From Microbotryum violaceum (lineage: Eukaryota): a stretch of DNA of 64,000 bases. The stretch is from the NCBI GenBank assembly GCA_001244265.2, contig LN717261.1, positions 3,115,591-3,179,590 on the forward strand, given 5' to 3'. Both the position numbers and the translations under genes were made by a program. The notes under the pieces are model-generated. The model searched no databases. It saw only the letters and a program-made list of their open reading frames with translations, and was not told where the DNA came from. This document shows, piece by piece, positions 2,219 through 56,763 of the stretch (position 1 is the stretch's first letter; the number at the start of each line of letters is the position of its first letter).

Positions 2219-2689
2219 ATCGTTTCCGGGAACGAACAATTCTGCACAGCATTTTGCAACGCCTTCATTGGCCCCTCTCGTGCGAAGCGCGGAGGAGAAT
2301 CAAAGACGCGCTCGAGTGGATGAAGGAAGATCGAAAAGAAGTGGGTCGACGACGAATTTTACATCAGCAAGGCTAAAAAAGCACGTTTAACCCTGCCGTG
2401 GCACGCGTTACCGGGCGTGGGCAACGAGCTGGGGCATAAGCGACTTGTGAACTTGCTCACTGCAGTAAGTTTACCCTTCTCACGCCCACTCTTGCCACTC
2501 TCCTTGTCGCCATGATCTGATGAGCAATGGTCTGATCGTATGCTCTCCTTTTCCGTTCATCAGGCAATGAATGGGTTGGCGAGACACTCATCAATTTTCT
2601 CATCGGAGGCATTATTCACACCCAGCAGCTCGAACACACGACGACAATACTAGTATATGGACTTGTTGCATCTCATACGCTATTACAGG

Positions 2690-3171
2690 ATGCCGACGAC
2701 TCATCTGATGTTCAATGTTTGCTTGGACAATATCATTTCGAATCGTGGCTCGCCGACTTGGCAAGGCACGACTGCATCGGGATCGCGAGCAGTGGCACCG
2801 CCGAGTTCATCAGGGCACACCCCGACTCCGAGTCGCTCTAGTTTTTGCCAATTTGTGACGAGAACCACTGGTTCCTGGGAAGGATTGATGTGAAACATGG
2901 AGCCTGGTCCATACACAATTCACTTTCCTCAAGGACGCTCACGGTCGCCGCCGCTCTAAACGCTCTGGAGGCACTTTTCAAAGTACTTAATCTCATCATC
3001 GATGTGAATCACGGTACGACGACAAGGGCACCTCAACAACAAGATACCTTCTCGTGCGGTCCTGCCATTGTAAATGTCGTCGAACACAAACTCGTACACG
3101 AGAAGGCGTTTGATCCAACGCACGCCACTCTATCGCGAATCCGTCAATTTTGCCGCGCTATCGACATGTAG
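2690..3171 (+). pseudogene. Ulp1-like (peptidase C48) protease domain, transposon-associated
   Basis: ENHWFLGRID (catalytic His-Trp) and PQQQDTFSCG (Gln...Cys) motifs; in-frame stop just upstream of 2845. Confidence 0.7.
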
Positions 3172-17428: not shown

Positions 17429-18135
17429 ACCGCCCTCATCCGCCCTCGTGCTCGCTCCGAGTCGAGCATCAAGATTCAACTTGAAGGTCCAGCTCACAGC
17501 GGTGGCATACGTCACCACTTGACCCTCGTTTCAGCTAGCCATTGTTTTCCGGCTACACAGGACGAGCAGCTCTTTGCTATTCGATCGCCACACTGCACCG
17601 CGTGACTACTACATAATGCCCCACCGACCGCTGCAGGTGATCTAGGACCTAAGGGCGTGTTCGGCTGGAAAAGCACTTTTAGGGCTTTCACCTCAGGCAG
17701 GTTAAAAAGTAACCAGTCTTAGTAGCGCCGCCGCGCGGCCGGAAAAACCTATGCAAATAGGCGACCTAGGCCCGGTGGCACACCGCTACCGACGGGAGCA
17801 ACTCGGCGCCGGGACAGGCCCGTCTACCTCTTCCAAGTCCGTTTAGACCACTACCTTGATCATATGACGACATGAGTAGTTCCAGCAGATAACAAGAAGC
17901 AAATATTAGTTTCGCGTTGAATCAGTAACCGCACGTAATTTTCTAAATGTTTAGACAAGAAGCACGCGGGAACAAGCTCGCAAAGGTTTAGAGTCATTAC
18001 AATTGATCCGGAAATGATTTTCCGGCTTGGCCCTATGACGTAAGTCATTGACGGGGGAAGCTTGTAGAGCTTATAGAAAGGCTTGTTGAAGTCCAGGTAT
18101 ATCCATTAACGCCTCAGCACTGCTGAAGCCGTGGT

Positions 18136-21052
18136 AGGACCCCCGAAAGCCCAGCCATAGGCGGCCCTCTAAAAACGGCCTTTTTCGAGGCAAAATGTCC
18201 AAAAAAAATCCAGATTTTGACTGAAAATGTCCAAATATGAGGGTCGCCTAGTGCTGAATAATTTTTGAAAACTACTCTCCAAGCTCTACAATGCTCAGAA
18301 ATTTTTCTGCGCTGCGCGCAGACTGCGTTTCCGCCGCGCGCGGGCCGGAAAGGTCGCGCGCGCGCACACCAAGAGCGCCGCCAGCGCTCTGCTAGCTCTG
18401 CTCCACACCCGCCCCGCCGCGATCCACTGCCGCGCTTGATGGGCCAAGCTCTGACAAAGCTTACCGCCATACGAGCATGAGCCAGGCTGACCTTCATTCT
18501 TCATCATTATTGACGCTCTTCGTCTTCGTCTGAACGGCCTGCTGGTGCAAGACAAGCAAGGGATGCTGCTCAAATTCCTTTAATGTTCTGCAAAAGCCTG
18601 TACCGTTTTTCTTGATTGACGGTGATGTGAATTTCCCCTTCATCACGCCAGTTAGATCGCGTGGAATCCTTGACCTCGTAGTTGATGCTTGACAAGTCCG
18701 GTTTGAGCGAATTTATGATACAGCGCCCATCGACATGACGAATGCGCGTGTTGCCCTGATGAGACAGGTTGGAGTAAACTTCCGGAGCGATGACACGCAG
18801 CTCTTATATCACGGCATTTGCGAAAAGAGCAAGAGAGTCAAGACTTTCAACAATTTCATGAGTTGTGCTTCACTTCTTGTAAATGTTCCTCACTGCACGG
18901 AAGGTGACAAGTAAAATGTGCAGTCACGGTGCTAGTCAGTCATGTGAAGTTTCCCCACACAAGTAGTAGTTTGGCATACCTATCCCGATTGCCAGTCGTT
19001 CCCCGCATTGTTCACCCGAAGGCAAACCCACAGGTTCTTCTGGAATTCCATACACGACCAGTGTGTCCACCTTGAGAGAACGGAGTGCAGACACATCACC
19101 ATCAACAGCTCGGACGAGTACGTGGTTCGACATGATCTGACCATAGACCTCTTGTCGTCCTTTCATTTTGTCCTGTGGTGTCGGAGTCAAATGTGAGCGC
19201 AAGAAAAGGCACGCCCCAGCTTGCGTCATGATACATCACGATGCAGCGACTAACGTGAGATCGTCCCTCGGTGATGATCGCAGTTGTCGCTTGCTCGTGC
19301 AACGTCTTCTCCCGGATATTTGCCCCTGAAGCGAAGGTTCCTCTCGTTCTCCACAGACTGTCGATTCCTGTCCATTCCCATTGTCTCGACTATCCGTCGA
19401 AGTGCGGCAGAATGCACGTTGCCGCGGTGCTCGGTTCGGTTTTGGGCAAAGGGTTGATCTGACCCTACGTTCTGCGCGCCACCTTTAAACTTGATCTTCT
19501 CGAGGTGTCGGCATTGGTGTGCACGTCGTCGAGCGAGCAAGCTGTCCAAGTCGAGTGTGGGGACAGAGTAGAAAGCCCCCTTCTCTAGAAGATCACGCGG
19601 GTACGGGGGCGCTTCCCACTGGTTGGGAACACGGGTCTGTATCGGTAAATGCATCGATCAACCGATAATTGTGTTCACTCACGGATTGCTCATGCTCATG
19701 GCATGCTTCGGCCAGGATCGTTTGAAACTGTCGATCTTCTTCTTCTGCATCGGCTTGATCGAAGCCAGCATCAACAGCATCGCTGAGGGTTCAATATACG
19801 GTTGTTAGTGATCGTTTGTTGCTCTCAAACACCAAGCTACGTACATCAGAGCTTCCTGGTCAATGTCAAGCGCAGTCACCGAAAGAAGCGCGTCGCATTC
19901 CTCGCGTCGCATAATACACGGTAATGGCTCCGATCCGACAAGACGGAGACGATCGAGGACTTGGTTCAGACCAGCCTCGTTCACGTTCGGAGGGACACCT
20001 TGGCGAACGGTCGACTCGGATGTGTTTCGGAGTACCAGGGGGAGCCTGCAGACACACGCAAGATTCTACCCACATCAGTATCCAAGATCGACTCATGAAT
20101 GAGCCCAGAGGATGCAAACTCACTGAGGATCTGTAGAAAGTCTTGGAGGCGTGTAGATCGACCTCGAAGATTGACGCGGTCGACAGCTGTCCAACGTATG
20201 CGAGTGAGGTGATGACGAGCACTCGCAAGCTCACGCTCCCGAATTGCGTCGGCGTAGCTAATTGAGAAACCTGTTCTTTGAATGTTGTGGATGATATATC
20301 GAATTTTTTCTGCCTTGTCGAGATGGGCCCATAACGCCGAGGCATTGAGAGGAAGGCGCATTGACCGACGACCCCGATACGGCGAATGCGATAGATCGAT
20401 AGCCATCGAGATAAGCCAAGGATAGAAAGCTTTGATCGGAAAACTTTCCGATAGATTGCTTCAAGGGGCGTGGCAGCGCGTCAGAATGTCGAGGGTCATC
20501 TTTCGATAGAGCAAGTCGGAGAGGAGCGTCGGGCGCAGGTAGGTCGTACGCGAGTAGGTCAACGAGGCGTAGGTCGGCAACAGGGCTCAAGATTGCAAAT
20601 TTCTCGGAGGTGAGAGCAAAGCTCGGTTTGATATTAATGATCACAGGCATTTTGAACACCTTTGTAGACACCTTTGTAGAGTATAGAGTGCCAGTGATTG
20701 GGTGCCACGACCGCGGTCGGTGGCGTGTCGCGCGAGTCAAACTGAAATGGACTCGAATAGGATCTCATGATTGATCGCAAATGCAGCACTTCCCAACGCG
20801 CTCAAATCGCAAACAGCGCGACTGTTACCCGCGCGCAGCTGGGCCGGCTATATATGCCCCGCGCCTCCAGCCTCCCGCTACCCTGGTCTGCGCTTCAAAG
20901 TTTGACCGGAGGGAGAAAAATGTCCATAAATGAGGTGAGCCTCGACCCATTTTGAGCCAAAAATGTCCAAATTTGCGGACTGCCTAGCCGATTTTCGGGT
21001 CCCCAAAATGTCCAAATTTGCGGGCCGCCTCTGGCTGGGCTTTCGGGGTCCT
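18136..21052 (-). mobile_element. Unclassified TIR transposon, 'AGGACCCC' family copy 1
   Basis: ~31-bp TIRs AGGACCCC(C)GAAAGCCCAGCCA.AGGCGGCCC; 8-bp TSD GCCGTGGT/GCCGTGGC; AAAATGTCCAAA subterminal repeats at both ends. Confidence 0.85.
18500..20650 (-). pseudogene. Decayed ORF of the AGGACCCC family (unknown protein)
   Basis: MPVIINIKP..LLAYDLPAPDAPLRLALSKDDP..ALWAHL..LDLDSLLARRRAHQC..ELRVIAPEVYS..RHVDGRCIINSL; matches peptides at 35740-37096 (+) and 44800-45529 (-). Confidence 0.6.
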
Positions 21053-21623
21053 GCCGTGGCATGTCTGGCCCAGTGCAACACGTGATCTGACGCGGGTTGC
21101 GCGAGGTTGCGCGCCGTCCGAACCTGACGGAATCGACGCGTGTCGTGCGTTGTTGATACGTTGACAGCTGTTGTTTTTAGGCCCCATCTCGCCCGTACAT
21201 TCAACACGAGACCCATTGGTCTCGCCGCGAATATCCTCGTCCTCAATCGCCGAACCGCATACACGTTACGTCTCTCGTTGATCTCCATTGATCTTGTGAT
21301 CCTTTCACATCGCCAACTCATACCAAGTTTTCACGCTTCGGCGCTCGACAAGCCCCACGTGTATGTCCGGCGATTGTCGTCCGGGCTTTACCAGAGAACG
21401 AGCTTCTGAGGGCCTGCTGACATCCACGTCTTAACTATGCATTCATCGCGTGGCCTCGGAACATTGCGGGCTCCTTCCCTCCTGGATAACCATTCACAAA
21501 CAAGTCTCTGGGTGCGTGGTGGAAGTGCGGCTGCGCGGTCGTCGACGCGCGGTTTGATTGGTTTAATGCAGCACCGTGTCATTCTGACCTTTCCCTGTTC
21601 GCCTTCCAGGCTCTGCCTGTACG

Positions 21624-29345: not shown

Positions 29346-30109
29346 GGTGACTAAGCGGAATGAATACGAGAACACAAGTGTAGTAGCTCAGCAGAAACGA
29401 GCTCCGGGTGGGACAAGTCTGCGACGATCGAGGTAGTACGTCTGCAGGAAGCAGCGGCCGCCTGCATGCACGCGCGACAGATTTCTTACGTGCCACTTTG
29501 ACGTGTTCCTCATCTCACAACGCGTCAAGCACGTGACTGGACACCCGCCCATGAGCATGAGCCCCGGCCTCAGGCGCTTAGAGTCTAAACATTTAGAAAA
29601 TTACGTGCGGTTACTGATTCAACGCGAAACCAATCTTTGCTTCTTGTTATCTGCTGGAACTACTCATGTCGTCATATGATCAAGGTATTGGTCTAAACGG
29701 ACTTGGAAGAGGTAGACGGGCCTGTCCCGGCGCCGAGTTGCTCCCGTCGGTAGCGGTGTGCCACCGGGCCCAGGTCGCCTATTTGCATAGGTTTTTCCGG
29801 CCGCGCGGCGGCGTTACTAAGATTGGTTACTTTTTAACCTGCCTGAGGTGGGGCCTTTTCACTTTTAGCTGAAAGCGGCGCGCGCCGCGGTTAAGGACCA
29901 CTTTTAGCAGCCCAACACCTCACGTTTACTAGGAACCACTTTTAAGGCGCGAACGGCCGGGAGCGATCTGACGGGTGAGAGAGCTCACCGGACGAGTTCA
30001 GGTCACGTATTTGAACCCGGCATGTCGTCGAAATTCCAACACCCGGCACGAGGAGATGCGTGTCTTGCTTCTGCAATGCGCATCGCTGCATGAGGACATC
30101 TCGAAGTCA

Positions 30110-35179: not shown

Positions 35180-37348
35180 GCTGGGAACGCGGGGGGGTCT
35201 TGCGGGTGGGTTATAGGGTGGGGTGTGTGTGATGTAGTCTGAGGTGGTGGGTTAGAGAGAGAGGAGAGGTGGAGAAGTGAGAAGAGGCGCGCCTGAGAGG
35301 CCAGGAGAGGCCTGGAGCAGCCTGGAGCGGGACCCCCGAAAGCCCAGCCGGAGGCGCTTTTTTTTTTTTTTTTTTTTTTTTGACATTTTGAGGACCCAAA
35401 ATCCTGAACATCGTCGAGGCGCATTGCAAAAAATTGACATTTTGGGACGAAACACACGTTTTGCCCCCGAGGCGCCTTTGCAGATTTTGACATTTTTCCG
35501 TGGGTCGACGCAATTTTGGCCTACCCTGAGCAGCCTTCGGCATGACTTTGGGCCCGTTTGCCTTCGCTTCGAGACGCGTTTCGCGATGCTCGCGCTTGAA
35601 CAAGTCACTTAGTACTAGCCCTCTTCGGTAATCACTTGAGTTAAGTGGCAGTGAGGGATTAGGCCGATTCGATATTGAAGGGGCGCAGGTTCCGTTCCGC
35701 TTCACTTCGGTCCGAGATTGGAGCATAGCACGACAACATCATCCCATGCAGGCCTGCTATTTGAACGATGCCTTCGATTGATTATCGCCGCTCACCAACA
35801 TGAACATGACGATCGCCGAGCTCCTCGCCTTCGATGTCGCTCCCGCCGACGCGTCTCTTCACATCGAGTTGTCCAAAGACGAGCTCACGCACTACTCGAC
35901 CTTATCATCTACTCGAGGCCATTGAGAAGGCAAACAGCTTCTCACGAACAATCGTCTACCAAGCTCAACTATTCAAATTTTGGTCTAAGCTCACGCGTGT
36001 TTGGTTCTACACAGCCCACACACTTGAAACTTCAACTGCGCCTCAAGTTGTCGATGCTCGTGATACCAATTTCTCGCTGAACTGGCCAACCTGATTGCCC
36101 ATCAAGCTGCTCATAAGTGTAGCCACCTCAAGCTGTTCTACTCAAGGGAGGCCGATGGGATCGAGCGACCCAAGTCGCGGAGAGGCAGGCGTAGGGGTTA
36201 GCAATACAGAGGAAGGACGCAGTACAGCACATTCATGCGTCTTGAAAGGGTTGGTACAGTCCATGGGACCATCTCGCTGCGAAGACATGGCGGGCACGAC
36301 GAGGAGCTTGAACGAGATTCAGAAGAACGCCTATATTGAGGATGGCCGCATTCAAGTGAGTTGTTGCTGAATTTAGGAACGAAGGCAACTGGATCTAATG
36401 TTTTGCCGGTCCTATACTTTTAGGAAAAGCTCCCTGAGAGAGACAAGCAGTATGGAGCGCTAGCACAACGCTATCCTCATTTTGGATCGCTTGACGGAGC
36501 TGTAACCGCTGCCACACCATTGGAGATTAGATCTCTGATCTGCTTTGGCCTCAAGTGTGGCATGCATTCACTCAGCTGCGATCAAACTGTTTATGGAGAA
36601 GAAGCGCTGTCTATCGGAATTGGTACGCGCGTTGTTTTGAGTGACAGTTGAGGAAGTTCTCGTTTGACACAAGTATTGTGTCCTACAGTGCGACACATCT
36701 ACAGCAGAGTGACAACAAACCACTGCAACCAAGACACGCTCCGCCTCGTTGGTTCTACTCTCAAATGTCGTCGTACAGGAGCTTCGCCTCATCAAGAAAA
36801 CATGCTATTCCACACACCTCATTGATGGCACTATGCCGTTCCGCATGATTGATGGTCGACAGGTCATCGAGTCATTAGGCCCGCCAAAGATCACATATAG
36901 TTCAACCACGGACCTTACCTCACTTTACCCTGATGAGCGCATAATCAGCACGAGCGCACATGCCGAGCAAAGATTTGCCTCCCTTCGGAGCGTGCCCGGC
37001 CTGCGAGATGCCGCCGGCAGAACCTCTACAAGCCGCAAATGCCACGGCGGATACAAAAAGCTCAAGTTTAGCAAACCGATTCTGACAATGAAGTAGCGAG
37101 CCTGCCAGCCAAGCAAGGAAGGCTTGTCTGATGCCTGGAGCCACGCGCGACTCGGACACTAGCCGAAGCGACGCGCGCCGCAAGCCACTTTCGATTGGCC
37201 GCCGCGCGCCCGCAAACGCTCGGAACGCGTTTTCGAGGACGTTTGAGCGACTTTTGGAACATGTAGAACACATCTTGATAATGTTTCCGAGGAGCATGTG
37301 AAATTTTGACATTTTGGGGCCAAAATAGGGCAAAAAACTTTGACAAAA

Positions 37349-40293
37349 CCAGTGGGAACCCGTTAAATTAACGGGAGGATGAAATCCAAAAAATAGCAGG
37401 ATAATCGAACAGTCTACATGATTTCAGCGCAGAGGTTAAGAAAACACAGTACGAAGTACAGCAAAGAAACAAAATCCGTTCATCACCGAAACAGCCTGGC
37501 CGTTGCTTGTTGCCGGATTTAGTTAAATTTCGGTGCGAGGCGATCTTTGGTCCAGGGAGACGAGTACACAAACTTCAGTCAACGGTCAATAGCAGAGTCA
37601 ATGATTGGTCAATTACACACCTTTGGTCCAGGGAGACGAGAACACGAACTTCAGTCAACGGTCAATAGCAGAGTCAATGATTGGTGAGGAACCAATCAAG
37701 AGGACTCCGCACCGCCGCTGACGCAGTCCGCGCCTCCCTGGCCAAAATGGCTTAAACTACCCAAAAACCCCAAAGACGCTTCTAGCCATTACTGCTCGCG
37801 CAGTCCCTTCCAACAGATTTGGCTTTGAGCGTTCGTGCAATGAGATCCGGACGGTTGTATGCTTCGTCGTTCGGCTCCAGTGCAGCCTTGATTTCCGGCC
37901 ATTCGGTGTTGCACGTCACCGTGATGAACAGCGAAGACTTCCCGTATTTGACGACACACGCCATCGCATCTTGGTAACGCTGCGTGACCTCCCGCGGGCT
38001 ATTCTTGAATGTCGACCCCAATATCACCGAACGTCCAATCTGATCCGGGGTCAAGCCGTTGGCAACGGCGTCGGTGATGCCCTGCGCTGTGGTGAGGCGC
38101 AGGTTCTCTTGATGAAAGCGGATATAGTTAAGTCGATCGGTCTCGACTTGGGAGTATCCGTCAGTGACAAACTCGAGGAGGAGACGCTGGGTGGCATGTG
38201 GGATTGAGAAGTAGTCGCCGCGTTCGTGCAAGTAGTATGCAAGATATTCCTCGTCTCCTTGATGATCGTCCTAGATATTCGAGCATTCTATGTGAGCCTG
38301 TGCTTACGTCTCAACAGAAAGGAACATATGAGAAAGACCCGAAGACGCGTACGTTCACCATCACCATTCTCTTCGTCCCCCGCCGTCTTCATCCTCATCG
38401 TCGCGGTCTTCGTCCTCCTCTTCGCCTTCGTCAGCAAGACCGAGACCGGCAAGTACCTCCCGTGATTGGACCCCATTGTCGATCTGCTCTCGGTTTCTGG
38501 CGATTGGCAGCCCAGCTTAGCGAAACCCGCAAAGAGAAATGTTGGGGTGGAAGCCATCTTCCCCTGCAGGAAATAGTAGTGGGTAACGGAGAGGCATCGC
38601 AGACGGATGGAGCGAGCTAACGACTTGGTACTTGGGCCGACCCTCGGGACATCGATCACCGTGCACCTGGAGAATAAGGTCTTGACGTCCACGATCTCCC
38701 GTGTTGGTGTCGGAATGGCAGATAAGCGTCGCCATTTCCGTGCTCGACGTAGGAAGGTTGTGGGTGCGTCGGTCTCGGCAAGGTGGTAGGCAGAGGCGCA
38801 GGACCCACTCTTTGGCCTAACCTGCGCGAGCTTTGGTTGATGCAAGTTCCCTCACCAAGCGATTGCCGGTACGCAACGTAGAATCGAGCTTGGTCAAAGT
38901 AGATCTTTGTATGCGACTGTCTGCGCCGTCGGGTCCAAGTTGAGTGTCGGTGGCCTCGGCCGGGCATATGAGCCATGTTTTGGCAAAGGTTGGGCGCTGA
39001 TTGACGGCAGGAATCAGGGCGCTGAGAGGCGCCGAGTCGATGGTAAAGGCGTCGAAATATCCGAAACATGCGGGGTCCTTGAGTGCCTAGTCGAGTCTGG
39101 TCAAAGTGGGCAGCGAGCGAAGTGAAGACAGCGCGTTCAAGTTGTTGTACGACCGGGCATTCTCGCGGAATGCTTTAGCTTCTGTGTGGGTGGGTAGAAC
39201 AGTTCAGCATGTGGGTCTACTGCAGACGAACGTTGTTGGACGGAGCAACTGACCGCTATCCGAGCCTTGAAGAAGCTGCCGATACTCGAGATTGGGCTGG
39301 GGAGGGCGAGGTAGCCGCACCTTGCCTTGCGAGCAGCACGCGCTGAAGTGTCTGGTCGACTTGGACCTTTCGCACTCCCAGTGCCGAGCCTTGCAGTGGG
39401 TGCACACGGCCGTCTGGGGGCCGAGGTCGTCGCGGATCGAAACGTGGGCTTGAGGGGTTTCAGCGCGATTCGAGCCCGGCGCACTCGCCTTTGCGGAGGA
39501 GGTGGTGGTGGTGGGGCGAGCTCAGCGTCGGATCGGCCATCGGGCCCTCGCGCTGACCACGCCGTCCGTTCTACAAAGCTGTACGGCGGACGCTTATACG
39601 GGTCGTAATACCAACATCGGTCGAGTGGTTGTCATTGTGCGCGGGGAGCTGATTCTGTTGATCGGAGCGGGACGAAGAGGAGAGTCAAGCAGCCGGCTCA
39701 GCAGCAGGCGCTCGAGCAGGCCCATGGTCTCCCATGGCACGGCGGTACGCTATCCTCGCGCCAGACTCGGCGCGGTTGTCACAAAAATTCGGTGAGTGGG
39801 AGGGAAAGGAAAGAATTAGAGAGAGTATCGCGGGACTATTTACAGCCCCTGGAAGATCCTGTTGTTGTTCAGCCCCTAAAACCGGTGTCGCGTTGTAAAC
39901 AATACACATCACGTGATTGACGGCGCATCCGTAAGCCGCGCCCGCAAAGACAGCGGGACAACCTCTGAGCTCTGTAGAAGAAGTGTCATGCAAACCCACG
40001 CGCTTGCTATGCATTAAATCCCACACAAACTGCTCAATAGTTGCGCACCCTGCCAAAAATCAACAAAAATTTTCCTCGGGCTGTAGCTCGACTTTTATGG
40101 TGCAGAAAATGCGAAAAAGGTCGTACATGACTTCTGGTCGGGACGCCAATAATACAGGCAGGTGCGGCAGACACAATACTGTAGTGGTACATTCATTATA
40201 GGCGGCCCAGAGGGCCGCAACACAGTCAAAAACAGCGATTTTAGGTACATGGGTCGCGGATCGACCTTTTTTTATATAAAGAGGTAGTAAGGA
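37349..40293 (-). mobile_element. Non-autonomous Helitron family B, copy 1
   Basis: 3' hairpin CCCGTTAATTTAACGGG then TTCCCACTGG|T; RepHel N-terminus (CTHCKARHWECE..CCSQGKV, YPLLFPAGEDG, YQDAMA..FITVTCNTEWPEI..RPDLIAR); no helicase. The 5' boundary overlaps the adjacent MULE TIR by a few bases. Confidence 0.85.
37521..37815. mobile_element. Solo LTR inserted in Helitron B copy 1
   Basis: Absent from the other two copies; 5-bp TSD GATTT; termini AGTT..AACA (degenerate TGTT..AACA); contains a ~64-bp direct repeat. Confidence 0.7.
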
Positions 40294-41718
40294 CAAAAAT
40301 GCCCTCGAAAGATAGCGAAAGGACGAAAATGCCCTCGCTTCTTTTCATGAGGACAGAAATGCCCTTCTCTAAAGGACCAAAATGCCCTCGGATTCTCGAC
40401 TTCTGTAATACTTGATATATCAGCTCATAACCAAGAGGGTAGCTTCTTGTAGTCGTTGTGATCAGCGCCGTATACTCAGAATCCCCAGAGATGCTGTGAG
40501 AATTCATATATCATGGTCGCAAAGTCAGGGCCCTATCGCGACTGAAGCGAGTCCAAGTCGAAAGCGAGCGATGAGTATAGACCGAGTGAATTCCATATGA
40601 AAAAGGCCAGCAGTAGTAGCATTGACAGTCTTGACGCCTTATGCTCAGATTCAAATGGTCTATCTATCTATCGCATGTAACTCGGTTGTGTCCGGGGCCT
40701 TTGCAGAGACCACAGATCGTGTCGCGCTTGGACCTCTCGTCCGCACCCCGGAACCTGCGTTTGATCGGACGTCGTATATGCTTGGAGAGATGTGACGGAA
40801 TGATAATGATACCCTCTTCTTCGCCATGACCTCATGACGCTCACGAGGAAGACGATGCAGCTTCCATTCGGCCCGAGATGGAACAGGTTAAAGCGGTGTC
40901 GCGTAAGTCTGCTCTTGCTGTCGCCGGTGTGCAGCAGTGATCGGTAACTGTGGGCTTCATTAAAGACAATGATGGTCCAAACGCTGCATTCTCCTTTGGA
41001 GATAGCAGTGGCAGAGAAGGAGCACGGAGGATCTTGGACACTCTTGCTCACGACGCGTGTCAGACTTGCGAATGTCGAGCTGAAACTGGTGATCAAGCGC
41101 ATATTGATGGCCCGCATCTGTGAGCTCCTTCTTTTCATAGAGACTTTCCCCCTCACTGAAAACATGTTCCATTGTCGAAAGTCGGTGGTGACTGTTAGAA
41201 GTGGGGTCTGAGAGCCTAACTCATTGCTATTAGTCTTGGTTAATACTTTATTCTGCGCGCACGCCTATCTTTGTCTTTGCGTCTTTTTTCCTTCTGGGTT
41301 CCTTCTCCACGCTATTCTCATCATCTCACTCGTGTATCTTGGAGCTGAGTCGTGGAGTACCTCTTAGTCCTTGTTGCAACAGTGACTTCGATGTCGAGGC
41401 GAGAATGCGGAAGGTGGCCAACGTCGCTTCGCGAACTCGCGCACCTCGACGCGTCGACGATCGATGAGGACCCCTGACTTTGCGACCATGATATATGAAT
41501 TCTCACAGCATCTCTGGGGATTCTGAGTATACGGCGCTGATCACAACGACTACAAGAAGCTACCCTCTTGGTTATGAGCTGATATATCAAGTATTACAGA
41601 AGTCGAGAATCCGAGGGCATTTTGGTCCTTTAGAGAAGGGCATTTCTGTCCTCATGAAAAGAAGCGAGGGCATTTTCGTCCTTTCGCTATCTTTCGAGGG
41701 CATTTTTGTCCTTTTCTC
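40289..41718 (-). mobile_element. Non-autonomous Mutator/MULE element with 242-bp TIRs
   Basis: 40289-40530 is the reverse complement of 41472-41713 with no difference seen by eye; right terminus reads GAGAAAAGGAC; internal MuDR DNA-binding domain (YALDHQFQLDIRKSD..C..CSFSATA..WTIIVFNEAH) at ~40940-41172. Confidence 0.85.
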
Positions 41719-41739
41719 TTTTTTTTATAAAGAGGTATA

Positions 41740-44251
41740 CCAGTGGGAACCCGTTAAATTAACGGGAGGATGAAATTCAAATAGCAGGATAATTGTACAG
41801 TCTACGTGATTTCAGGTTAAAAAAGCCAATACGAAGAAGAAACAAAATCCATTCATCCTACATTCATCGCCAAAACAGCCTGCATGTCGCTTGCTGCCAG
41901 ACTTGGCTTCAAACACTCGTGCAATGAGATCCGGACGGTTGCATGCTTTGTCGTTCGGCCCCAGTGCAGCCTTGGTTTGCGGTGATTCAGGAACGCACGT
42001 TATCGTGATGAGCAGCGGAGGCTTTCCATGTTTGACAACGCACGCCATAGCATCCTGGTATCGCTGCATGATGTCGCGCGGTCTATTCTTGAACATCGAG
42101 CCCAAAGTCATCGAGCGTCCAATTTGGTCCGGGGTTAAGCCGTTGATGCCTTGGGTCGTGGTGAGGTGTAGGTTTTTTTAATGCAACCGGATGTAGTTGA
42201 GTCGATCGGTCTCAGCCTGGGAGTATCTTTTGATCACGAACGCCGGGAAGGGACGTTGAGTGCCATGCGGGCTTGTCGCGTTTGTGCAAGTAGAACGCAA
42301 AGGATTTGTGAACGCGAGACTCACCACCTTGACCCCCTTTACTTGACCTTCGTCGTAGGTGTTCAAACATTCAATATCAGTCTGTGCTCGCGCCTTAACA
42401 GAATGGAACACCCGAGGAGGAGCCAAAGATGCTTATGTTCACCATCACCGTTCTCTTCGTCCCCTTCCTCCTCGTCCTCACCTTCTTTGTTGCGGTCTTT
42501 TGGCGAAGAGTGGCCCAACTCGATCGAACCGCAAAGAGGAATGTTGGGGTGGAAGCCATCTTCCCCCGCGGGGAAGAGTAGTGGGTACCGGAGAGGCATT
42601 CCAGACGGATGGAGCGAGCTAAAGATTTGGTACTTGGGCCGACCATCGGGACATCGATCACCGTGCACCTGGGGAATACGACCTTGCGGTCCACGATCTC
42701 CCGTGTTGGTGTCGGAATAAGTATTGCCATTTCCGTGCTTGACGTAGGAGGGTTGTGGGTACGTCGGTCCCGGCCTGGCGGGAGGCAGAGGCGCAGGATC
42801 CACTCTTTGGCCGTATCCCAACCTGCGCGAGCTTGGCCAATGCAAACAGGCTCACAAAGCGAATGTTGGTACCAACGTGAACTCGAGCTTGGTCAACGTA
42901 GATCTTTGTATGCGACTGTCTGGGCTGTCGGGTCCAAGTAGAGTGTCGGTGGCCTCGGCCGGGTCGATGAGCCATGTTTGGGCAAAGGCTGGGCGTTGAT
43001 TCACGGCAGGGATCAGGGCGCTAAGTCGATGACAGCGGCGACCGAACACGCGAAACACGGGGAGTCCTAGAGTGCCCAGCCGTGTCTGGTTGAAGTGAAA
43101 GACGGCGCGTTGTTGTGCGACCGGGCGTTTTCGCGGAATGCTTGAGCTCCTGTGTAGGTGCATCGCACAGTTCAACATGCGGGTCTACCGCAGACGGAAG
43201 TTGTTGGATGGAGCAACTGACCGCTATCCTTTAAGTAGATTTCGATATTTGGGATTGGGCCGGAGAGAGGAGGTAGCTGCACCTTGCCCGGCGAGCAGCA
43301 CGTGCTGTAGTGTCCGGTCGACTTCGACCTTTCGTACTCCCAGTGTCGAGCTTTGTGGTGGATACACACGGCCATTTGGGGCCGAGGTAGTCGCGGATGG
43401 GAACGTGGGGCTTGAGTGGTTTGAGCGCGGTTCGAGGCCTGCGCACTTGCCTCTGCGCAGGAAGAGGTGGTGGTGGGGCGAGCTCAGCGTCGGATCGGCC
43501 ATCGGGCCCTCGCGCTGACCACGCTGTCCGTTTTACAAAGCTGTACGGCGGACGCTTATACGGGTCGCAATACCAAGGTCGGTTGATTGTTGTCATTACG
43601 CGCGGGGAGCTGATCCTGTTGATCGGAGCGGGACGAAGAGGAGAGGAGATGAGCGGGGCGCTATCGTACGGCGCTACCCTCGCGCCAAAGACTCGGCGCG
43701 GTTGTCACGCAAATTCGATGAGAGTGGGAGGGAAAAGGCGAAAGTTGGAGAGAGTAGCGCGGGAGTATTCACAGGAGTATTCACAGCGCCTGGAACCTCA
43801 TGTTGTTGTTGAGCCCCTAAAATCGGTATCGGGATGCCAGAAATACGTCACGTGATCGACGGGGCATCCCGCATGCAGCGTAGCGGCGGCCGCGTCCGCG
43901 CGTCAACGACAGCGAGACCACGCCTGAGCTCTGTAGAAGAAGTGTCATGTAATCCCACGCGCTTCCTATACATTAAATCATACACAAACTGCTCAATAGT
44001 TGGGAACCCGGCCAAAAATCAACAAAAAATGTCCTCGGGCTGTAGCACGACTTTCATGATGCAGAAAATGCGGAAAGGGTCGTACATGACTTCTGGTCGG
44101 GACGCCAATATCACAGGCAGGTGCGGCAGACCCAATACTGTACTGGTACATTCACTATAGGCGGCCCAGAGGGCCACAACACAGTCCAAAACAGCGATCT
44201 TAGGTACATGGGTCGCGGATCGACCTTTTTTTATATATAGAGGTAGTAAAG
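41740..44251 (-). mobile_element. Non-autonomous Helitron family B, copy 2
   Basis: Same 3' hairpin and CTGG|T, same truncated RepHel N-terminus, 5' end CTTTACTACCTCTATATATAAAAAAAGG. Confidence 0.85.
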
Positions 44252-44370
44252 TAAAGGCCAAAAAGGGCGTTTTTCCACATGCGCCTCGGGCTGGGCTTTC
44301 GGGGGGGTCCTCCGAGCGCGCGCCTCTCCAGGGCCTCTCCAGGCTTCTCCAGGATCCAGGCAGCTCCAGG

Positions 44371-45932
44371 AGGACCCCCGAAAGCCCAGCCCGAGGCGCA
44401 TGTGGAAAAACGCCCTTTTTGGCCTTTTTGTCAAAGTTTTTTACCCTATTTTGGCCCCAAAATTTCACATGCGCCTCGGAAATATTATCAAAATGTGTTC
44501 TACATGTTCCAAAAATCGCTCAAACGTCCTCGAAAACGCGTTCCGAGCGTTTGCGGGCGCGCGGCGGCCTATCGAAAGTGGCTTGCGGCGCGCTTCGGCT
44601 GGTGTTGCGCGTGCCTCCAGGCTTCAAACAATCCTTCCGTGCTTTGCTGGCTGGCTCGCTGCTTCGTTGTCAGACCTCCTTTTTGCTGAAGTTGAGCTCC
44701 TTGTTTCCGCGGTGGCATTTGTGCGGCTTGTAGAGGTTCTGCCGGCGGCATCTCGCAGGCCGGGCACGCTCCGAAGGGCGGCAAACCTTTGCTCGGCAGC
44801 TCATGCTGATTAGGCGCTCATCCGGGTAACATGAGGTAGGGTCCGTGGTTGAACGATATGTAGTCGTTGATGGGCCTAACGAATTGATGGCTTGTCGACC
44901 ATCAATCATGCGGAACGGTATAGTGCCATCAATGAGGTGTGTGAATAGCATGTTTTCTTGATGAGGCGAAGCTCCTGTACGACGACATTTGAGAGTAGAA
45001 CCAACGAGGCGAGCGTGTCTTGGTTGCATTGGTTTGTTGTCACTTTGCTGTAGATGTATCACACTGTAGAACACAAGACTTGTGTCAAACGAGAGCTTCA
45101 CAGCTCAACTGCCACTCAAAACAACGTACCAATTCCGATAGACAGCGCTTCTTCTCCATAAGCAGTTTGATCGTAGCTGAGTGAATGCATGCCACGCTTG
45201 AGGCCAAAGCAGATAAGAGATCCAATCTCCAATGGTGTGGCAGCGGTTACAGCTCCGTCAAGCGATCCAAAATGAGGATAGCGTTGTGCTAGCACTCCAT
45301 ACTGCTTGTCTCTCTCAGGGAGCTTTTCCTAAAGAGTCGGGTAGGGTAAGGTTGAATACTGGGTGGGCTCGTCTTTGGACAACTCGATGTGAAGAGACAC
45401 GTCGGCGGGAGCGACATCGAAAGCGAGGACCTCGGCAACCGTCATGTTGGTGAGCGGCGATAATTGATGAAAGTCATCATCGTTCATATAGTAGTCCTGA
45501 TCTTCGTCAAGAAACAAGCATGGAATCATTTTGTCGTGCTATGCTCCAGTGTCAGAACAAAGTGAAGCGGAACGGAACCTCAGGGGCCCCGTCAATATCA
45601 GCAGTGGGAAGTTATATTTATTGTTATTTTACTTGATAGTGGTACCTAATCCCTAATAATCTTTAACAGCCACTGAACTAAAGTGATTACCGAAAATGGC
45701 TAGTGACTTGTTCAAGCGCGAGCATCGCAAAGCGCGTTTCGAAGCGAAGGCAAACGGGCCCAAAGCCATGCCGTAGGCTGCTCAGGGTAGGCCAAAATTG
45801 GGCCGACTCTGAGTCACGGGAAAATGTCAAAATCTGGACATGCGCCTCGGGGGCGAAACGTGTGTTTCGTCCCAAAATGTCAATTTTTTGCAATGCGCGT
45901 CGATGATTTTCAGGATTTTGGGTCCTCAAAAT
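44371..45932 (-). mobile_element. AGGACCCC family copy 3 (inverted; far end lost at a Helitron insertion)
   Basis: TIR AGGACCCCCGAAAGCCCAGCC at 44371; collinear with copy 2 but with an extra internal deletion. Confidence 0.8.
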
Positions 45933-45963
45933 CCTTAAAACTATCTTCTATCTTCTATCTATA

Positions 45964-46071
45964 CTAGTGCGGTGGCGCGCTTTGCGCGCCATGACGTCAC
46001 GCCACGGGGTTTGTCTCGTTCTAGAATGTTCTTTGTCTCGACGATGTTTTTTATTCTTTAAGTTTTATGGA
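45964..46071 (-). mobile_element. 108-bp mini-Helitron
   Basis: Minus strand reads A|TCCATAAAACTT...TGGCGCGCAAAGCGCGCCA-CCGCA-CTAG|T. Confidence 0.75.
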
Positions 46072-46252
46072 TATCGACGTTTTTTATTCTTTAAGTTTTA
46101 AGGATATATCATCACCCTTAAAATTTAATCGACGTTTTTTATTCTCTAAGTTTTAAGGATATATCATCATCCTTAAAACTTAAGAATAAAAAACGTTTTT
46201 TATTCTCTAAGTTTTAACGTTTTTTATTCTCTAAGTTTTATGGATATCATCA

Positions 46253-46359
46253 TCCTTAAAACTTAAGAATAAAAAACGTCGTCGAGACAAAGAACATTCT
46301 AGAACGAGACAAACCCCGTGGCGTGACGTCATGGCGCGCGAAGCGTGCCACCGCACTAG
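46253..46359 (+). mobile_element. 107-bp mini-Helitron
   Basis: A|TCCTTAAAACTT...TGGCGCGCGAAGCGTGCCA-CCGCA-CTAG|T; near-identical to 45964-46071. Confidence 0.75.
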
Positions 46360-46824
46360 TAAGGAATAAATGACTAAGGAACAAGAGACAAACCACGTGG
46401 CATGACATCATAGACAGCTCCCGGTCTAGCGCGTCCCCAGAACTAGCTAGCGCTGATTCCGCATCGGCGACACCGCTTTGTCTACCTTCGCCGAGGTTCC
46501 ATTCAATAGCACGTGACTCTCTCTGTTCCGCGTGTCCGCCACGTTGACGTCAAAGAACGTCAGAGAACGGGAGACAGACCACGTGGCGACAGACCGTTTT
46601 GTCCACGGTTGTCGAGGTTCCATTTCCCATCCAAGCAGCCTGGCACGTGACCCTCTGCTTTGGGCTTCACTCCACGACGCTCCGTGGCCTTCTGCTGTAT
46701 AACATTCTTCATGGAGAGCAGAGCCCCCAGGGGCAGCCGACGGGTCGCCGATGCGCTGTCCGCAAGGCTGCTTCGCCAAAAGCATCAATCCAGAACTCGC
46801 GCGCGATGACAGTAAAAAACTTGA

Positions 46825-55138: not shown

Positions 55139-56183
55139 TTTTTGAAAAAGAAAGACGGGACCGACGGGCGCGGGTGGTCGAGCGCGCGCCCACAGCTATC
55201 GGGAACGTCGCCCGCCAGTTTGAGGCCAATTCCAGGCCGCGCTAAAATCGGGGAGGTCTCCCAGGCTGGATTTCAATGATTATCATTCTCAGTCTGCCCA
55301 AAGTCATACCCAACATGGCGTCGTAATCGAGTCATCGTCATCGACCCAAGCGATCATCGATCAAAAACCCAACATTACATCTTCCAACGTCTTGAACCCA
55401 TTCGACGGGCCGGCGTACCCACTTCTCCCTTACTCCAAGCAAGCCCGTCAACGCTTCACTCCTGACTCTTTGCCGCCCCCCACCCCCACTCGATACGAAA
55501 ACCGGCCCAGATCGACGAATCGAGTCGCCGTGAATACTCGGCCCTCGGACCGCTGTCGGCGCCTGGGGAGCAAAAGATTTCATATTCCTCTCGGATTCAT
55601 GTTCAACACCTCTGTGAGGCATTGCACAGCTATGCACCTTCGTGCACGCTCGGATCAAATAGGTCTCCCTCGATCTTTGTTGCGGACGTCCCATCGCCGA
55701 GTGCGCGTCCAATCGAAGTGGAGAAGAAGCAGCTAAGGGCGAGGACCACGATCCACAAGGAATGATCGGCGGGCCAATATGCGGTATGAAGAGTCGGCGA
55801 CAGAGTGAGCTATTTGTGGAGAAACGGCAGTGATATGCAACTTGGGCGGGCAGTGAATTGAAGGGCATGTGAGGCGCAGGCTCGAGCGCGGGACACTCAA
55901 GCGCAGCACCACCGTGGATGACAGTGCAGGACCGTGCCAAACCCGGGGCGCGGTTGGGGCCCGAGAAGCCTCCCGTACGGCAACTCACCCGTGTCGAGCG
56001 ATCGTCCTTTTTCGAGCAGGAACGTGCCTAGACCGCAGCCGAACTCGAGTCGAGTAGAGTCGAGCGGCGCAAAAGTCCTCGGAATTAGCTAAGGCTCGCT
56101 TCATACAATTTACGCCAACGATATATCAATGCACAAGCAACACATTCGTTTATTCTTTTGACTGGTCCCAAATTTATCGCTCT

Positions 56184-56717: not shown

Positions 56718-56763
56718 GGTTACGAGCCCAACCGAGCGGCCAGCCAATTCGAGTCATCAAGAC

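What the first reader, a model, noticed from the sequence alone, without database searches (positions are those of the whole stretch)
18136..21052. Unclassified TIR family (AGGACCCC termini, 8-bp TSD) with an unrecognised protein, three copies in the window
Seen: the terminal motif AGGACCCC(C)GAAAGCCCAGCC at 18136, 21052, 35329, 44311 and 44371, 8-bp TSDs in two insertions, and homologous peptides in divergent copies (LLAYDLP..LSKDDP vs LLAFDVA..LSKDE; ELRVI..HVDGRCIINSL vs ELRLI..MIDGRQVIESL). The termini lack the CAG/TAG of hAT and the CA of P elements, the TSD is not Kolobok TTAA, and I recognise no transposase core in these deleted copies. Inference: deletion derivatives of a poorly described basidiomycete DNA-transposon lineage. 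The N-terminus resembles the region preceding Ulp1-like domains, weakly.
Basis: partly seen in the sequence, partly recalled or inferred. Interest (0 to 1): 0.75.

Follow-up and report, generated by a model that had tools for sequence, protein, structure and literature searches.

The report
Deleted P-like transposons carrying Ulp1
The three repeats are worn-down, internally deleted copies of a cut-and-paste transposon of the anther-smut fungus Microbotryum, whose full-length relatives encode a P-element-type transposase fused to a Ulp1-like protease.

Summary
The terminal motif occurs 5 times (0.01 expected). It bounds one complete 2,917-bp element (A, 18136-21052). It also bounds a second element (B) split by a 6.9-kb Helitron-bearing insertion, and a third (C) truncated at one end. 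The TSD is convincing only for A (7 of 8); B is 5 of 8.

The window is Microbotryum DNA. None of the three copies holds a transposase core. Long relatives of 1,375-1,765 aa in M. silenes-dioicae and M. lychnidis-dioicae carry the same N- and C-terminal peptides. Between them lie a Ulp1/C48 domain and a core of about 800 aa. One long gene model reads through the same TIR.

No Microbotryum relative matches a Pfam transposase family. An AlphaFold model of the core nevertheless matches Drosophila P element transposase best (Foldseek E 1.6e-12, TM 0.66-0.70; next family 1e-4). D, D and E columns are conserved. At least 119 Agaricomycete proteins share the core; 2 of them carry the P-element HTH domain.

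So "deletion derivatives" and the Ulp1 hint were right, and excluding P was wrong. I file it as a divergent Ulp1-carrying variant of the P superfamily. Repbase and Dfam could not be checked.

The parts
18136..21052 (-). Copy A: complete non-autonomous element, 2,917 bp, with the gene remnant on the minus strand
   Evidence: Termini. Sequence. Peptides 83-86% identical to M. silenes-dioicae BQ5605 proteins P0004, P0006 and P0008 (69% for P0007). Maps to P0005 residues 67-147 and 976-1329 only.
18128..18135 (.). Target-site duplication of A, left copy: GCCGTGGT
   Evidence: Read; 7 of 8 identical to 21053-21060.
21053..21060 (.). Target-site duplication of A, right copy: GCCGTGGC
   Evidence: Read.
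18136..18167 (+). TIR of A at the gene's 3' side, 32 nt: AGGACCCCCGAAAGCCCAGCCATAGGCGGCCC
   Evidence: one indel and one mismatch against the other arm.
21022..21052 (-). TIR of A at the gene's 5' side, 31 nt
18192..18234 (-). Two subterminal copies of TTGGACATTTT (3' side of A)
   Evidence: 9 matches in the window against 1.25 expected, all inside A, B or C and all on the element's sense strand. See also family D14.
20917..21015 (-). Three subterminal copies of TTGGACATTTT, spaced 43-45 nt (5' side of A)
18570..20650 (-). Remnant ORF of A. ATG at 20650. The frame breaks near 20390-20400. The deletion junction lies near 20010-20040, where one frame reads WYSETH and another reads NTSESTVRQGVPPNV
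   Evidence: No Pfam family on 9 of 9 A pieces.
35329..37348 (+). Copy B, left part: 5' TIR 35329-35357, a T24 run, subterminal TTTGACATTTT motifs, and the gene remnant
   Evidence: Maps to P0017 residues 1-98 and 1322-1661.
44250..44311 (+). Copy B, right end, including the 3' TIR at 44281-44311
   Evidence: Matches the 3' end of C base for base up to the insertion point.
37349..44249 (-). 6.9-kb insertion that splits B. It is not part of the family. It holds two Helitron fragments (37349-40290 and 41739-44249) with a 1.4-kb element with 250-bp TIRs between them (40289-41713)
   Evidence: Self-blastn. Helitron_like_N 1.3e-32. Junctions ..GACAAAA | insert | AGGCCAAAAAG...
44371..45933 (-). Copy C: a deletion derivative inverted relative to B. 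The 3' TIR is at 44371-44399. The 5' end is cut off about 55 bp short of the terminus
   Evidence: Maps to P0017 residues 1-103 and 1457-1662, a larger deletion than in B.
2536..3171 (+). Isolated relic of the family's Ulp1/C48 domain, with an in-frame stop at 2839-2841
   Evidence: tblastn of P0017 residues 191-388: 32% identity, E 1.4e-25. Pfam Peptidase_C48 25.5 bits against a cut-off of 20.7.

Best explanation
The three repeats are non-autonomous, internally deleted copies of a cut-and-paste (TIR) DNA transposon family of Microbotryum.

The autonomous form, inferred from long relatives, encodes one protein of about 1,650 aa. Its parts, in order, are:
- a short N-terminal region;
- a Ulp1-like C48 cysteine-protease domain;
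- a Cys/His-rich region and a helix-turn-helix of the THAP9 / P-element kind;
- a long C-terminal region.

The proposed mechanism is inferred by analogy and is not shown here. The transposase binds the 29-32-bp TIRs, and probably also the subterminal TTGGACATTTT repeats. It excises the element and reinserts it with an 8-bp staggered cut, which leaves the 8-bp duplication.

Copies A, B and C keep both ends and only the first 100-150 and last 200-350 codons. They can therefore move only if a full-length copy supplies transposase in trans. A-type copies with the same N-terminal/C-terminal join occur as four further gene models on four different contigs in M. silenes-dioicae. This suggests that the deleted form itself spread after the deletion.

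The role of the Ulp1 domain is unknown. My guess is that it removes SUMO or a related modifier from a host factor or from the transposase itself.
For: Element structure:
- TIR motif 5 times against 0.01 expected.
- TIRs of 29-32 nt.
- TSD 7 of 8 for A.
- Subterminal motif: 9 of 9 window matches lie inside the elements.

Host: A's ORF is 69-86% identical to M. silenes-dioicae proteins.

Deletion derivatives:
- tblastn maps A, B and C only to the N- and C-terminal parts of the long proteins P0017 and P0005, each copy with different break points.
- P0017 (1,662 aa) contains every peptide of B and C in order.
- Residues 73-114 of the P0016 gene model are the translation of B's TIR and subterminal region. 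A full-length ORF therefore sits just inside the same TIR.
- The A-type join (..LQDFLQILS.. followed by ..LVLRNTSESTVRQGVPPNV) recurs in P0004, P0006, P0007 and P0008, which lie on four different contigs.

C48 domain:
- Pfam is above its cut-off in P0013, P0016, P0017, P0018 and P0022.
- Profile A2 against PDB: Ulp1 1euv 9.9e-16, SENP1 1.6e-14.
- The P0021 model matches Ulp1 by fold, 3.8e-4.

P-type core:
- AlphaFold model of P0020 from a 40-sequence alignment, with pLDDT about 80-94 over residues 40-530.
- Foldseek top hits are 6pe2_A (E 1.6e-12, TM 0.66) and 6p5a_A (2.4e-12, TM 0.70) over about 550 columns. The next families are Hermes 1.1e-4 (TM 0.23), ISCth4 and RAG1.
- The independent model of P0021 again puts P transposase first, 1.6e-6.
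- Conserved columns in A2: D139 40/40, D261 37/38, D326 38/39, H329 39/39, E507 33/33.
- Pfam Tnp_P_element HTH is above its cut-off in 2 of 15 Agaricomycete relatives scanned, P0101 (33.2 bits) and P0106 (25.9 bits).
- The nearest named ESM-Atlas clusters carry TNP-like_RNaseH_N/GBD/RNaseH_C, with scores 0.86-0.94. This is a lead only.
Against: - No Pfam P-element catalytic model (PF21787-9, PF12596) and no THAP model matched any of the 31 relatives scanned (15 Microbotryum and P0022 at E<=1; 15 Agaricomycete at E<=0.01).
- Sequence profiles A1 and A2 found no P transposase in the PDB.
- Sequence identity in the fold match is only 13%.
- The fold evidence comes from relatives (P0020, P0021), not from the window, whose copies lack the core.
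- The four long proteins closest to B and C (P0013, P0016, P0017, P0018) lose alignment over about 130 residues where the catalytic E should lie. No demonstrably intact autonomous copy of that lineage was seen.
- The TSD is clean in only one of the two scorable insertions.
- The termini begin AGG, not the CA that I recall for P elements.
- The subterminal repeats are direct, not inverted, between the two ends.
- GTP binding, catalysis, mobility and protease activity are all untested.
Confidence: 0.78

Rival explanations
1. The family is a separate superfamily-level lineage that merely shares the ancient RNase-H-with-insertion architecture with P, hAT, Transib and CACTA. It is not a member of P.
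For: No Pfam P-element catalytic family on any of the 31 relatives scanned. No sequence-profile hit to P transposase in the PDB. Only 13% identity in the fold match. The domain set is unusual, with Ulp1 and a C-terminal extension of about 350 aa. The termini are not CA.
Against: Foldseek separates P transposase from every other transposase by about 8 orders of magnitude in E-value, and by TM 0.66-0.70 against at most 0.41. The P-element HTH Pfam domain is above its cut-off in two relatives. The 8-bp TSD and roughly 31-bp TIR are the P values (recalled).
Confidence: 0.12
2. It is a member of the Kyakuja-Dileera-Zisupton (KDZ) group, which is common in basidiomycetes. Its Zisupton/Dileera members make 8-bp TSDs.
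For: 8-bp TSD. KDZ occurs in Pucciniomycotina, and Zisupton-1_PGr makes 8-bp TSDs (Kojima 2025, PMC12730594; passages read).
Against: No KDZ or CxC Pfam family on any of the 31 relatives scanned. The fold match is to P transposase. No KDZ structure exists for a direct fold comparison.
Confidence: 0.03
3. It is a hAT element, or a Ulp1-carrying MULE of the Kaonashi kind, with 8-bp TSDs.
For: hAT makes 8-bp TSDs. Ulp1 domains are known (recalled) in plant MULEs. Hermes appears in the Foldseek list at 1.1e-4.
Against: Hermes TM is only 0.23, against 0.66-0.70 for P. No hAT dimerisation, MULE or Transposase_mut Pfam hit on any relative.
Confidence: 0.03
4. The repeats are not mobile elements. They are decayed paralogues of a host Ulp1-related gene family that happen to share flanking repeats.
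For: The ORF remnants have no recognised family. Public annotation calls the relatives hypothetical or Ulp-family proteins.
Against: Inverted termini at both ends of A and B with a flanking 7/8 duplication. Copies lie in both orientations inside a transposon cluster. Related gene models lie on many contigs. Relatives have a transposase fold.
Confidence: 0.02

Closest known systems
P superfamily of DNA transposons (Drosophila P element transposase, PDB 6p5a/6pe2; human THAP9)
   Same: Best fold match of the catalytic region. The D..D..[D-x-x-H]..E layout has a large insertion before the E. The P-type HTH domain is present in two relatives. The TSD is 8 bp and the TIR about 31 bp; the P values are recalled, not tested.
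   Different: No Pfam P-element catalytic or THAP model matches. An N-terminal Ulp1/C48 domain is added. An extra C-terminal region of about 350 aa is present. The termini are AGGACCCC. The subterminal repeats are direct. The host is a basidiomycete. In the passages I read, Muszewska et al. 2017 (PMC5751038) list P in fungi only from Pucciniales and Allomyces in Repbase, and found 11 copies.
Internally deleted, non-autonomous P elements of Drosophila (recalled, e.g. KP-type)
   Same: Both ends are kept, the middle of the transposase gene is lost, and one deletion form has multiplied.
   Different: Here the remnant ORF of A appears broken. The frame shifts near 20390-20400, and the related gene models skip that stretch in different ways. 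No repressor role can be claimed.
Transposons that carry a Ulp1/C48 accessory protease
   Same: A C48 domain is encoded inside a DNA transposon. Oomycete Cryptons do this (Kojima & Jurka 2011, PMC3212892; passages read). The fungal survey PMC5751038 treats C48 as an accessory domain (passage read). Plant MULEs and CACTA elements also do so (recalled).
   Different: Here the protease is fused in one reading frame upstream of a P-type core. I found no paper describing that pairing.
Zisupton/Dileera (KDZ) elements of Pucciniomycotina
   Same: 8-bp TSD, the same fungal subphylum, and large multi-domain transposase genes (PMC12730594).
   Different: No KDZ Pfam match, and the fold matches P.

Membership tests
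P superfamily (P element / THAP9-like) | Catalytic region with the fold of P element transposase (RNase H fold split by an insertion domain) | tested here: met
   Tested on relatives, not on the window copies, which lack the region. P0020 model: 6pe2_A E 1.6e-12 TM 0.66; 6p5a_A 2.4e-12 TM 0.70; next family 1.1e-4. P0021 model: 6pe2_A 1.6e-6.
P superfamily (P element / THAP9-like) | Conserved acidic triad D, D, E | tested here: met
   In the 40-sequence alignment A2: D139 40/40, D261 37/38, E507 33/33. Assignment as the catalytic residues is by position and motif, not by superposition. The long proteins closest to B and C (P0013, P0017) do not align at the E.
P superfamily (P element / THAP9-like) | GTP-binding insertion domain | tested here: inconclusive
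   TM 0.66-0.70 normalised to the 442-456-residue target implies that most of the target, including its insertion domain, is superposed (inference). Atlas neighbours carry PF21788 in 14-77% of members (lead only). No residue-level or ligand test was done.
P superfamily (P element / THAP9-like) | Pfam P-element models (PF21787/8/9, PF12596, PF12017) | tested here: inconclusive
   PF12017 (HTH) is above its cut-off in 2 of 16 Agaricomycete relatives scanned (P0101, P0106) and in 0 of 15 Microbotryum proteins. The catalytic models match 0 of 31.
P superfamily (P element / THAP9-like) | N-terminal THAP zinc finger | tested here: not met
   No PF05485 hit on any relative. A confidently modelled Cys/His-rich region exists (P0021 residues 360-575, pLDDT about 85-95), but its kind was not determined.
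P superfamily (P element / THAP9-like) | 7-8-bp target-site duplication and short TIRs (about 31 bp in P) | tested here: met
   A: 8-bp flanks, 7 of 8 identical. TIRs are 29-32 nt. B: 5 of 8 only. The P values themselves are recalled.
Ulp1 / peptidase C48 | C48 domain with His, Asp/Asn, Gln and Cys | tested here: met
   Pfam is above its cut-off in P0013, P0016, P0017, P0018 and P0022, in 7 of 15 Agaricomycete proteins, and in the window relic 2842-3171. Profile against 1euv: 9.9e-16. H-W, Q and S-C-G motifs are visible. The Microbotryum sequences have N where most Agaricomycete relatives have D. Copies A, B and C lack the domain.
Kyakuja-Dileera-Zisupton (KDZ) | KDZ transposase domain | tested here: not met
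   No KDZ or CxC Pfam family among the hits of 31 relatives.
hAT | hAT transposase fold with a C-terminal dimerisation domain | tested here: not met
   Hermes E 1.1e-4, TM 0.23. No hAT Pfam family.
Annotated TE families (Repbase, Dfam) | Nucleotide or protein match to a deposited consensus | not testable with these tools
   Neither library is on hand. Eukaryotic genome collections were not searchable. The TE superfamily breakdown of M. lychnidis-dioicae (PMC4469406, Additional file 6) is a figure with no readable text.

The most novel reading that the evidence does not exclude
The window copies are the tip of a basidiomycete-wide, so far unnamed clade of P-related transposons whose transposase is fused to a Ulp1-type SUMO protease. 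At least 119 proteins of 980-2,236 aa from many Agaricomycete genera share the core, besides Microbotryum. Because the standard P-element HMMs miss the core, the reported near-absence of P elements from fungi would be a detection artefact. The recurrent protease fusion would then point to de-SUMOylation as part of how these elements transpose or escape host control.
Probability: 0.35. Interest if true: 0.6.

Novelty: new variant of a known kind. Interest (0 to 1): 0.45.

Why it matters
P elements are a textbook transposon family. A 2017 survey reported them from fungi only as rare occurrences, based on Pfam models (PMC5751038, passages read). If this reading is right, a large and divergent P-related lineage has been sitting in basidiomycete genomes annotated as 'hypothetical' or 'ubiquitin-like protease' proteins.

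That would change how TIR elements are classified in Microbotryum, where transposon load on the mating-type chromosomes is actively studied (PMC10502011, passages read). It would also give a natural case of a transposase fused to a SUMO-type protease that can be tested at the bench.

For the window itself the result is modest. It holds three dead, non-autonomous copies and one relic inside a transposon cluster.

Tried and rejected
- Pfam on 15 stop-to-stop ORFs of A, B and C: nothing.
- HMMER of a read-through of A (P0003) against 1.84 billion representatives: only 8 hits at E<=1e-3. One of them (P0011, 3,150 aa, 11 stretches) I did not examine.
- Sequence profiles A1 and A2 against PDB sequences: C48 proteases only, no transposase.
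- A 126-sequence alignment was over the size limit, and an 88-sequence one failed internally. I used 40 of the 127 relatives in hand (8 Microbotryum-search proteins plus 119), favouring shorter ones and keeping both PF12017 carriers.
- Atlas search with the C-terminal region kept in the window copies (P0017 residues 1320-1662): best score 0.77 (THAP9_C), within the noise the tool describes.
- RIP-like mutation between B and C: 62 transitions against 46 transversions, with 6 of 62 transitions in TCG/CGA context. There is no clear signature.
- A looser terminal motif found no further convincing ends: 3 extra matches with 2-3 mismatches, and 2.4 matches expected by chance in all.
- Literature. 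Searches on Ulp1 + P element + fungi, Ulp1 + THAP9 + Basidiomycota, Zisupton + Ulp1 (0 papers), P superfamily + Puccinia and C48 + Ulp1 + transposase + Agaricomycetes found no description of this fusion. This covers only the held library. Repbase Reports and subscription journals are outside it.
- My recollection that Zisupton carries Ulp1 could not be confirmed and is not used.
- The supplement of PMC4469406 with TE superfamilies is a figure. A search for Wicker-style TE classification codes in 12 of its 24 files found nothing.
- Genome contigs holds only bacteria and archaea, so the 'longest genomic copy' could not be fetched.
Full report
**1. What is in the sequence**

AGGACCCCGAAAGCCCAGCC with up to 3 mismatches occurs 5 times, against 0.01 expected, and 0 of 100 shuffles reach 5. 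The core CCCGAAAGCCCAGCC is exact at all five places.

Self-comparison of the window and reading of the ends give this layout.

- Copy A runs from 18136 to 21052 (2,917 bp). Its TIRs are 31-32 nt, with one indel and one mismatch between the arms. Its flanks are GCCGTGGT and GCCGTGGC, 7 of 8 identical.
- Copy B starts at 35329 and runs to 37348. There it is broken by a 6.9-kb insertion (37349-44249). It resumes at 44250 and ends at 44311.
- Copy C runs from 44371 to about 45933, in the opposite orientation to B. It is about 88% identical to B and lacks its last 55 bp or so, terminus included.
- B's flanks (CCTGGAGC and CCGAGCGC) agree at only 5 of 8 positions. The 8-bp TSD is therefore well supported once, not twice.
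- A short motif, TTGGACATTTT, occurs 9 times with at most 1 mismatch, against 1.25 expected. All 9 lie in the subterminal regions of A, B and C, always on the element's sense strand.

**2. The nested insertion and the neighbourhood**

The insert in B consists of two fragments that are about 83% alike. They carry a Helitron_like_N domain (E 1.3e-32). Between them lies a 1.4-kb element with 250-bp inverted ends.

The region from 35 to 60 kb is a transposon cluster. It holds a fuller Helitron (Helitron_like_N plus PIF1), a third copy of the Helitron fragment, and a Copia-type pol gene. The left part of the window holds ordinary eukaryotic genes: an MFS transporter, a Mur-ligase-like gene, peptidyl-tRNA hydrolase, a helicase HA2 domain and ARPC5.

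**3. The copies encode related but coreless proteins**

None of 15 stop-to-stop ORFs from A, B and C matches a Pfam family.

A's longest ORF is 69-86% identical to several Microbotryum silenes-dioicae proteins of 509-645 aa with no Pfam domain. That names the host genus.

Those four gene models (P0004, P0006, P0007, P0008) lie on four different contigs. They share A's join of the N-terminal part to '..LVLRNTSESTVRQGVPPNV..'. The deleted form itself has therefore multiplied.

A's frame breaks near 20390-20400, and the related gene models step around that stretch in different ways. I read the ORF as a relic rather than a working gene; this is an inference.

**4. Long relatives show what was deleted**

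A read-through of A (stops as X) was searched against 1.84 billion representative proteins and found only 8 hits. One of them is P0013 (1,517 aa).

P0013 begins with the B/C N-terminal peptide and ends with their middle peptide. In between it has a Peptidase_C48 domain (23.3 bits against a cut-off of 20.7) and about 1,000 residues with no Pfam family.

A second search with that central part found more relatives:
- P0016, P0017 and P0018, which are 90-94% identical to P0013;
- P0019, P0020 and P0021, which belong to other Microbotryum lineages at 42-54% identity;
- P0022, a 1,752-aa protein of the mushroom Ephemerocybe angulata at 28% identity.

P0017 (1,662 aa) contains all peptides of B and C in order, down to '..VVQELRFIKK..MIDGRQVIESLGP'.

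tblastn of the long proteins onto the window gives the following map.

| Copy | Long protein | Residues kept |
|---|---|---|
| B | P0017 | 1-98 and 1322-1661 |
| C | P0017 | 1-103 and 1457-1662 |
| A | P0005 | 67-147 and 976-1329 |

That makes three different internal deletions. Each removes the protease and the core.

Residues 73-114 of the P0016 gene model are the translation of B's TIR and subterminal region. A full-length ORF therefore lies directly inside the same terminus.

The same tblastn also revealed a fourth relic at 2536-3171. It is a C48 fragment, 32% identical to P0017 (E 1.4e-25), and Pfam C48 scores 25.5 bits on it.

**5. What the core is**

By sequence alone the core stays anonymous. 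Pfam finds only C48, and profiles A1 and A2 find only C48 proteases in the PDB.

Three further lines point one way.

- Language-model neighbours. The nearest named ESM-Atlas clusters of the core carry the P-element/THAP9 domains, with scores 0.86-0.94. The tool rates this as a lead only.
- Agaricomycete relatives. A search with the core of P0022 found 119 Agaricomycete proteins of 980-2,236 aa, all at E<=7e-49. By my hand count, 60 of the 119 carry a precomputed C48 domain and 2 carry PF12017. My own scan confirms the P-element HTH domain above its cut-off in both, P0101 (33.2 bits) and P0106 (25.9 bits), out of 15 scanned.
- Predicted fold. An AlphaFold model of P0020 (M. lychnidis-dioicae MVLG_06469, 862 aa) was built from a 40-sequence alignment. 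Its pLDDT is about 80-94 over residues 40-530. Foldseek against the PDB puts Drosophila P element transposase first: 6pe2_A at E 1.6e-12 (TM 0.66) and 6p5a_A at 2.4e-12 (TM 0.70), over about 550 columns. The next families follow at 1e-4 to 1e-3 with much lower TM: Hermes (TM 0.23), ISCth4 and RAG1.

A second, independent model confirms this. P0021, the long form nearest to copy A, again ranks P transposase first (1.6e-6), followed by yeast Ulp1 (3.8e-4).

The alignment also shows the expected conserved acidic positions:
- D139, 40/40, in '..DDT..';
- D261, 37/38, in '..DG..E';
- D326-x-K-H329;
- E507, 33/33, in 'W.H.TE..EH.FG..R'.

**6. Reading**

The elements are non-autonomous deletion derivatives of a TIR transposon whose transposase is of the P-element type and is fused to a Ulp1-like protease.

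What is shown:
- the terminal structure;
- one good TSD;
- the deletion maps;
- the domain content and predicted fold of relatives;
- the spread of one deleted form to several contigs.

What is inferred:
- that the transposase cuts at these TIRs and makes the 8-bp stagger;
- that the subterminal repeats are its binding sites;
- that GTP is a cofactor, as it is in P;
- that the protease acts on SUMO-like modifiers.

**7. Weak points**

- No P catalytic Pfam model matches.
- Identity in the fold match is 13%.
- No THAP finger was found.
- The long proteins closest to B and C do not align across the E motif, because of a frameshift, decay or a faulty gene model.
- All fold evidence is from relatives, not from the window.

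**8. Comparison with what is known**

P-superfamily features are met for fold, acidic triad, TSD and TIR length. The insertion domain and the Pfam models are inconclusive. The THAP finger is not met.

KDZ/Zisupton also makes 8-bp TSDs in this subphylum (PMC12730594, passages read), but it is not supported by Pfam or by fold. hAT and MULE are not supported either.

C48 domains are known passengers of other transposons (PMC3212892 and PMC5751038, passages read). Five literature searches found no description of a Ulp1-P fusion in fungi.

The 2017 fungal survey lists P only from Pucciniales and Allomyces in Repbase, and 11 copies in its own screen (PMC5751038). Those Pucciniales entries may be the same lineage. 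Repbase and Dfam were not available, so prior description cannot be excluded.

**9. Verdict**

I rate this a new variant of a known kind.

For the window itself the interest is moderate to low: the copies are dead. The interest is higher for the family, which appears widespread in Basidiomycota and invisible to the standard P-element models.

Noticed in passing
window 37349-40290, 41739-44249, 52511-55142; also 46825-51015: Three copies of a 2.5-2.9-kb Helitron fragment, 83-86% alike, with Helitron_like_N on the minus strand at 37782-38270. Two of them sit inside copy B. A fuller Helitron with Helitron_like_N and PIF1 helicase lies at 46825-51015. On the minus strand the insert in B ends with a hairpin (CCCGTTAA/TTAACGGG) followed by ..CTGG. 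It lies between ..GACAAAA and AGGCC...
   Followed up: partly
window 40289-41713: A 1.4-kb element with 250-bp terminal inverted repeats, 98.8% identical, lies between the two Helitron fragments. Its 198-aa ORF (40668-41264, minus strand) has no Pfam family.
   Followed up: no
window 45962-46361: A roughly 400-bp palindromic element (104-nt arms, 94%) with internal 55-nt tandem units abuts the truncated end of copy C. It may be what cut C off.
   Followed up: no
window 2536-3171: An isolated, stop-interrupted Ulp1/C48 fragment of the same transposon family. It is 32% identical to P0017 and scores 25.5 bits on Pfam C48. No recognisable TIR or core lies nearby.
   Followed up: partly
window 17689-17963 and 29576-29850: A pair of 275-bp inverted repeats, 97% identical and 11.6 kb apart, encloses copy A and its neighbours. 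Its nature is unknown.
   Followed up: no
window 56719-59400: A Copia-type polyprotein ORF with gag_pre-integrs, rve and other domains.
   Followed up: no
proteins P0013, P0016, P0017, P0018 (M. silenes-dioicae): The four long proteins nearest to copies B and C are 90-96% alike. All lose alignment for about 130 residues where other lineages have the conserved 'DRQDD ... W.H.TE..EH.FG..R' block. This suggests a shared frameshift or a shared gene-model error.
   Followed up: partly
window 35358-35381: A run of 24 T sits directly inside B's 5' TIR, where A and C have unique sequence.
   Followed up: no
window 35280-35328 and 44312-44370: Both flanks of B are simple repeats built from CCTGGAG (left) and its complement CTCCAGG (right). 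The two flanks are thus in inverted orientation to each other. This is unexplained, and it complicates reading B's TSD.
   Followed up: no
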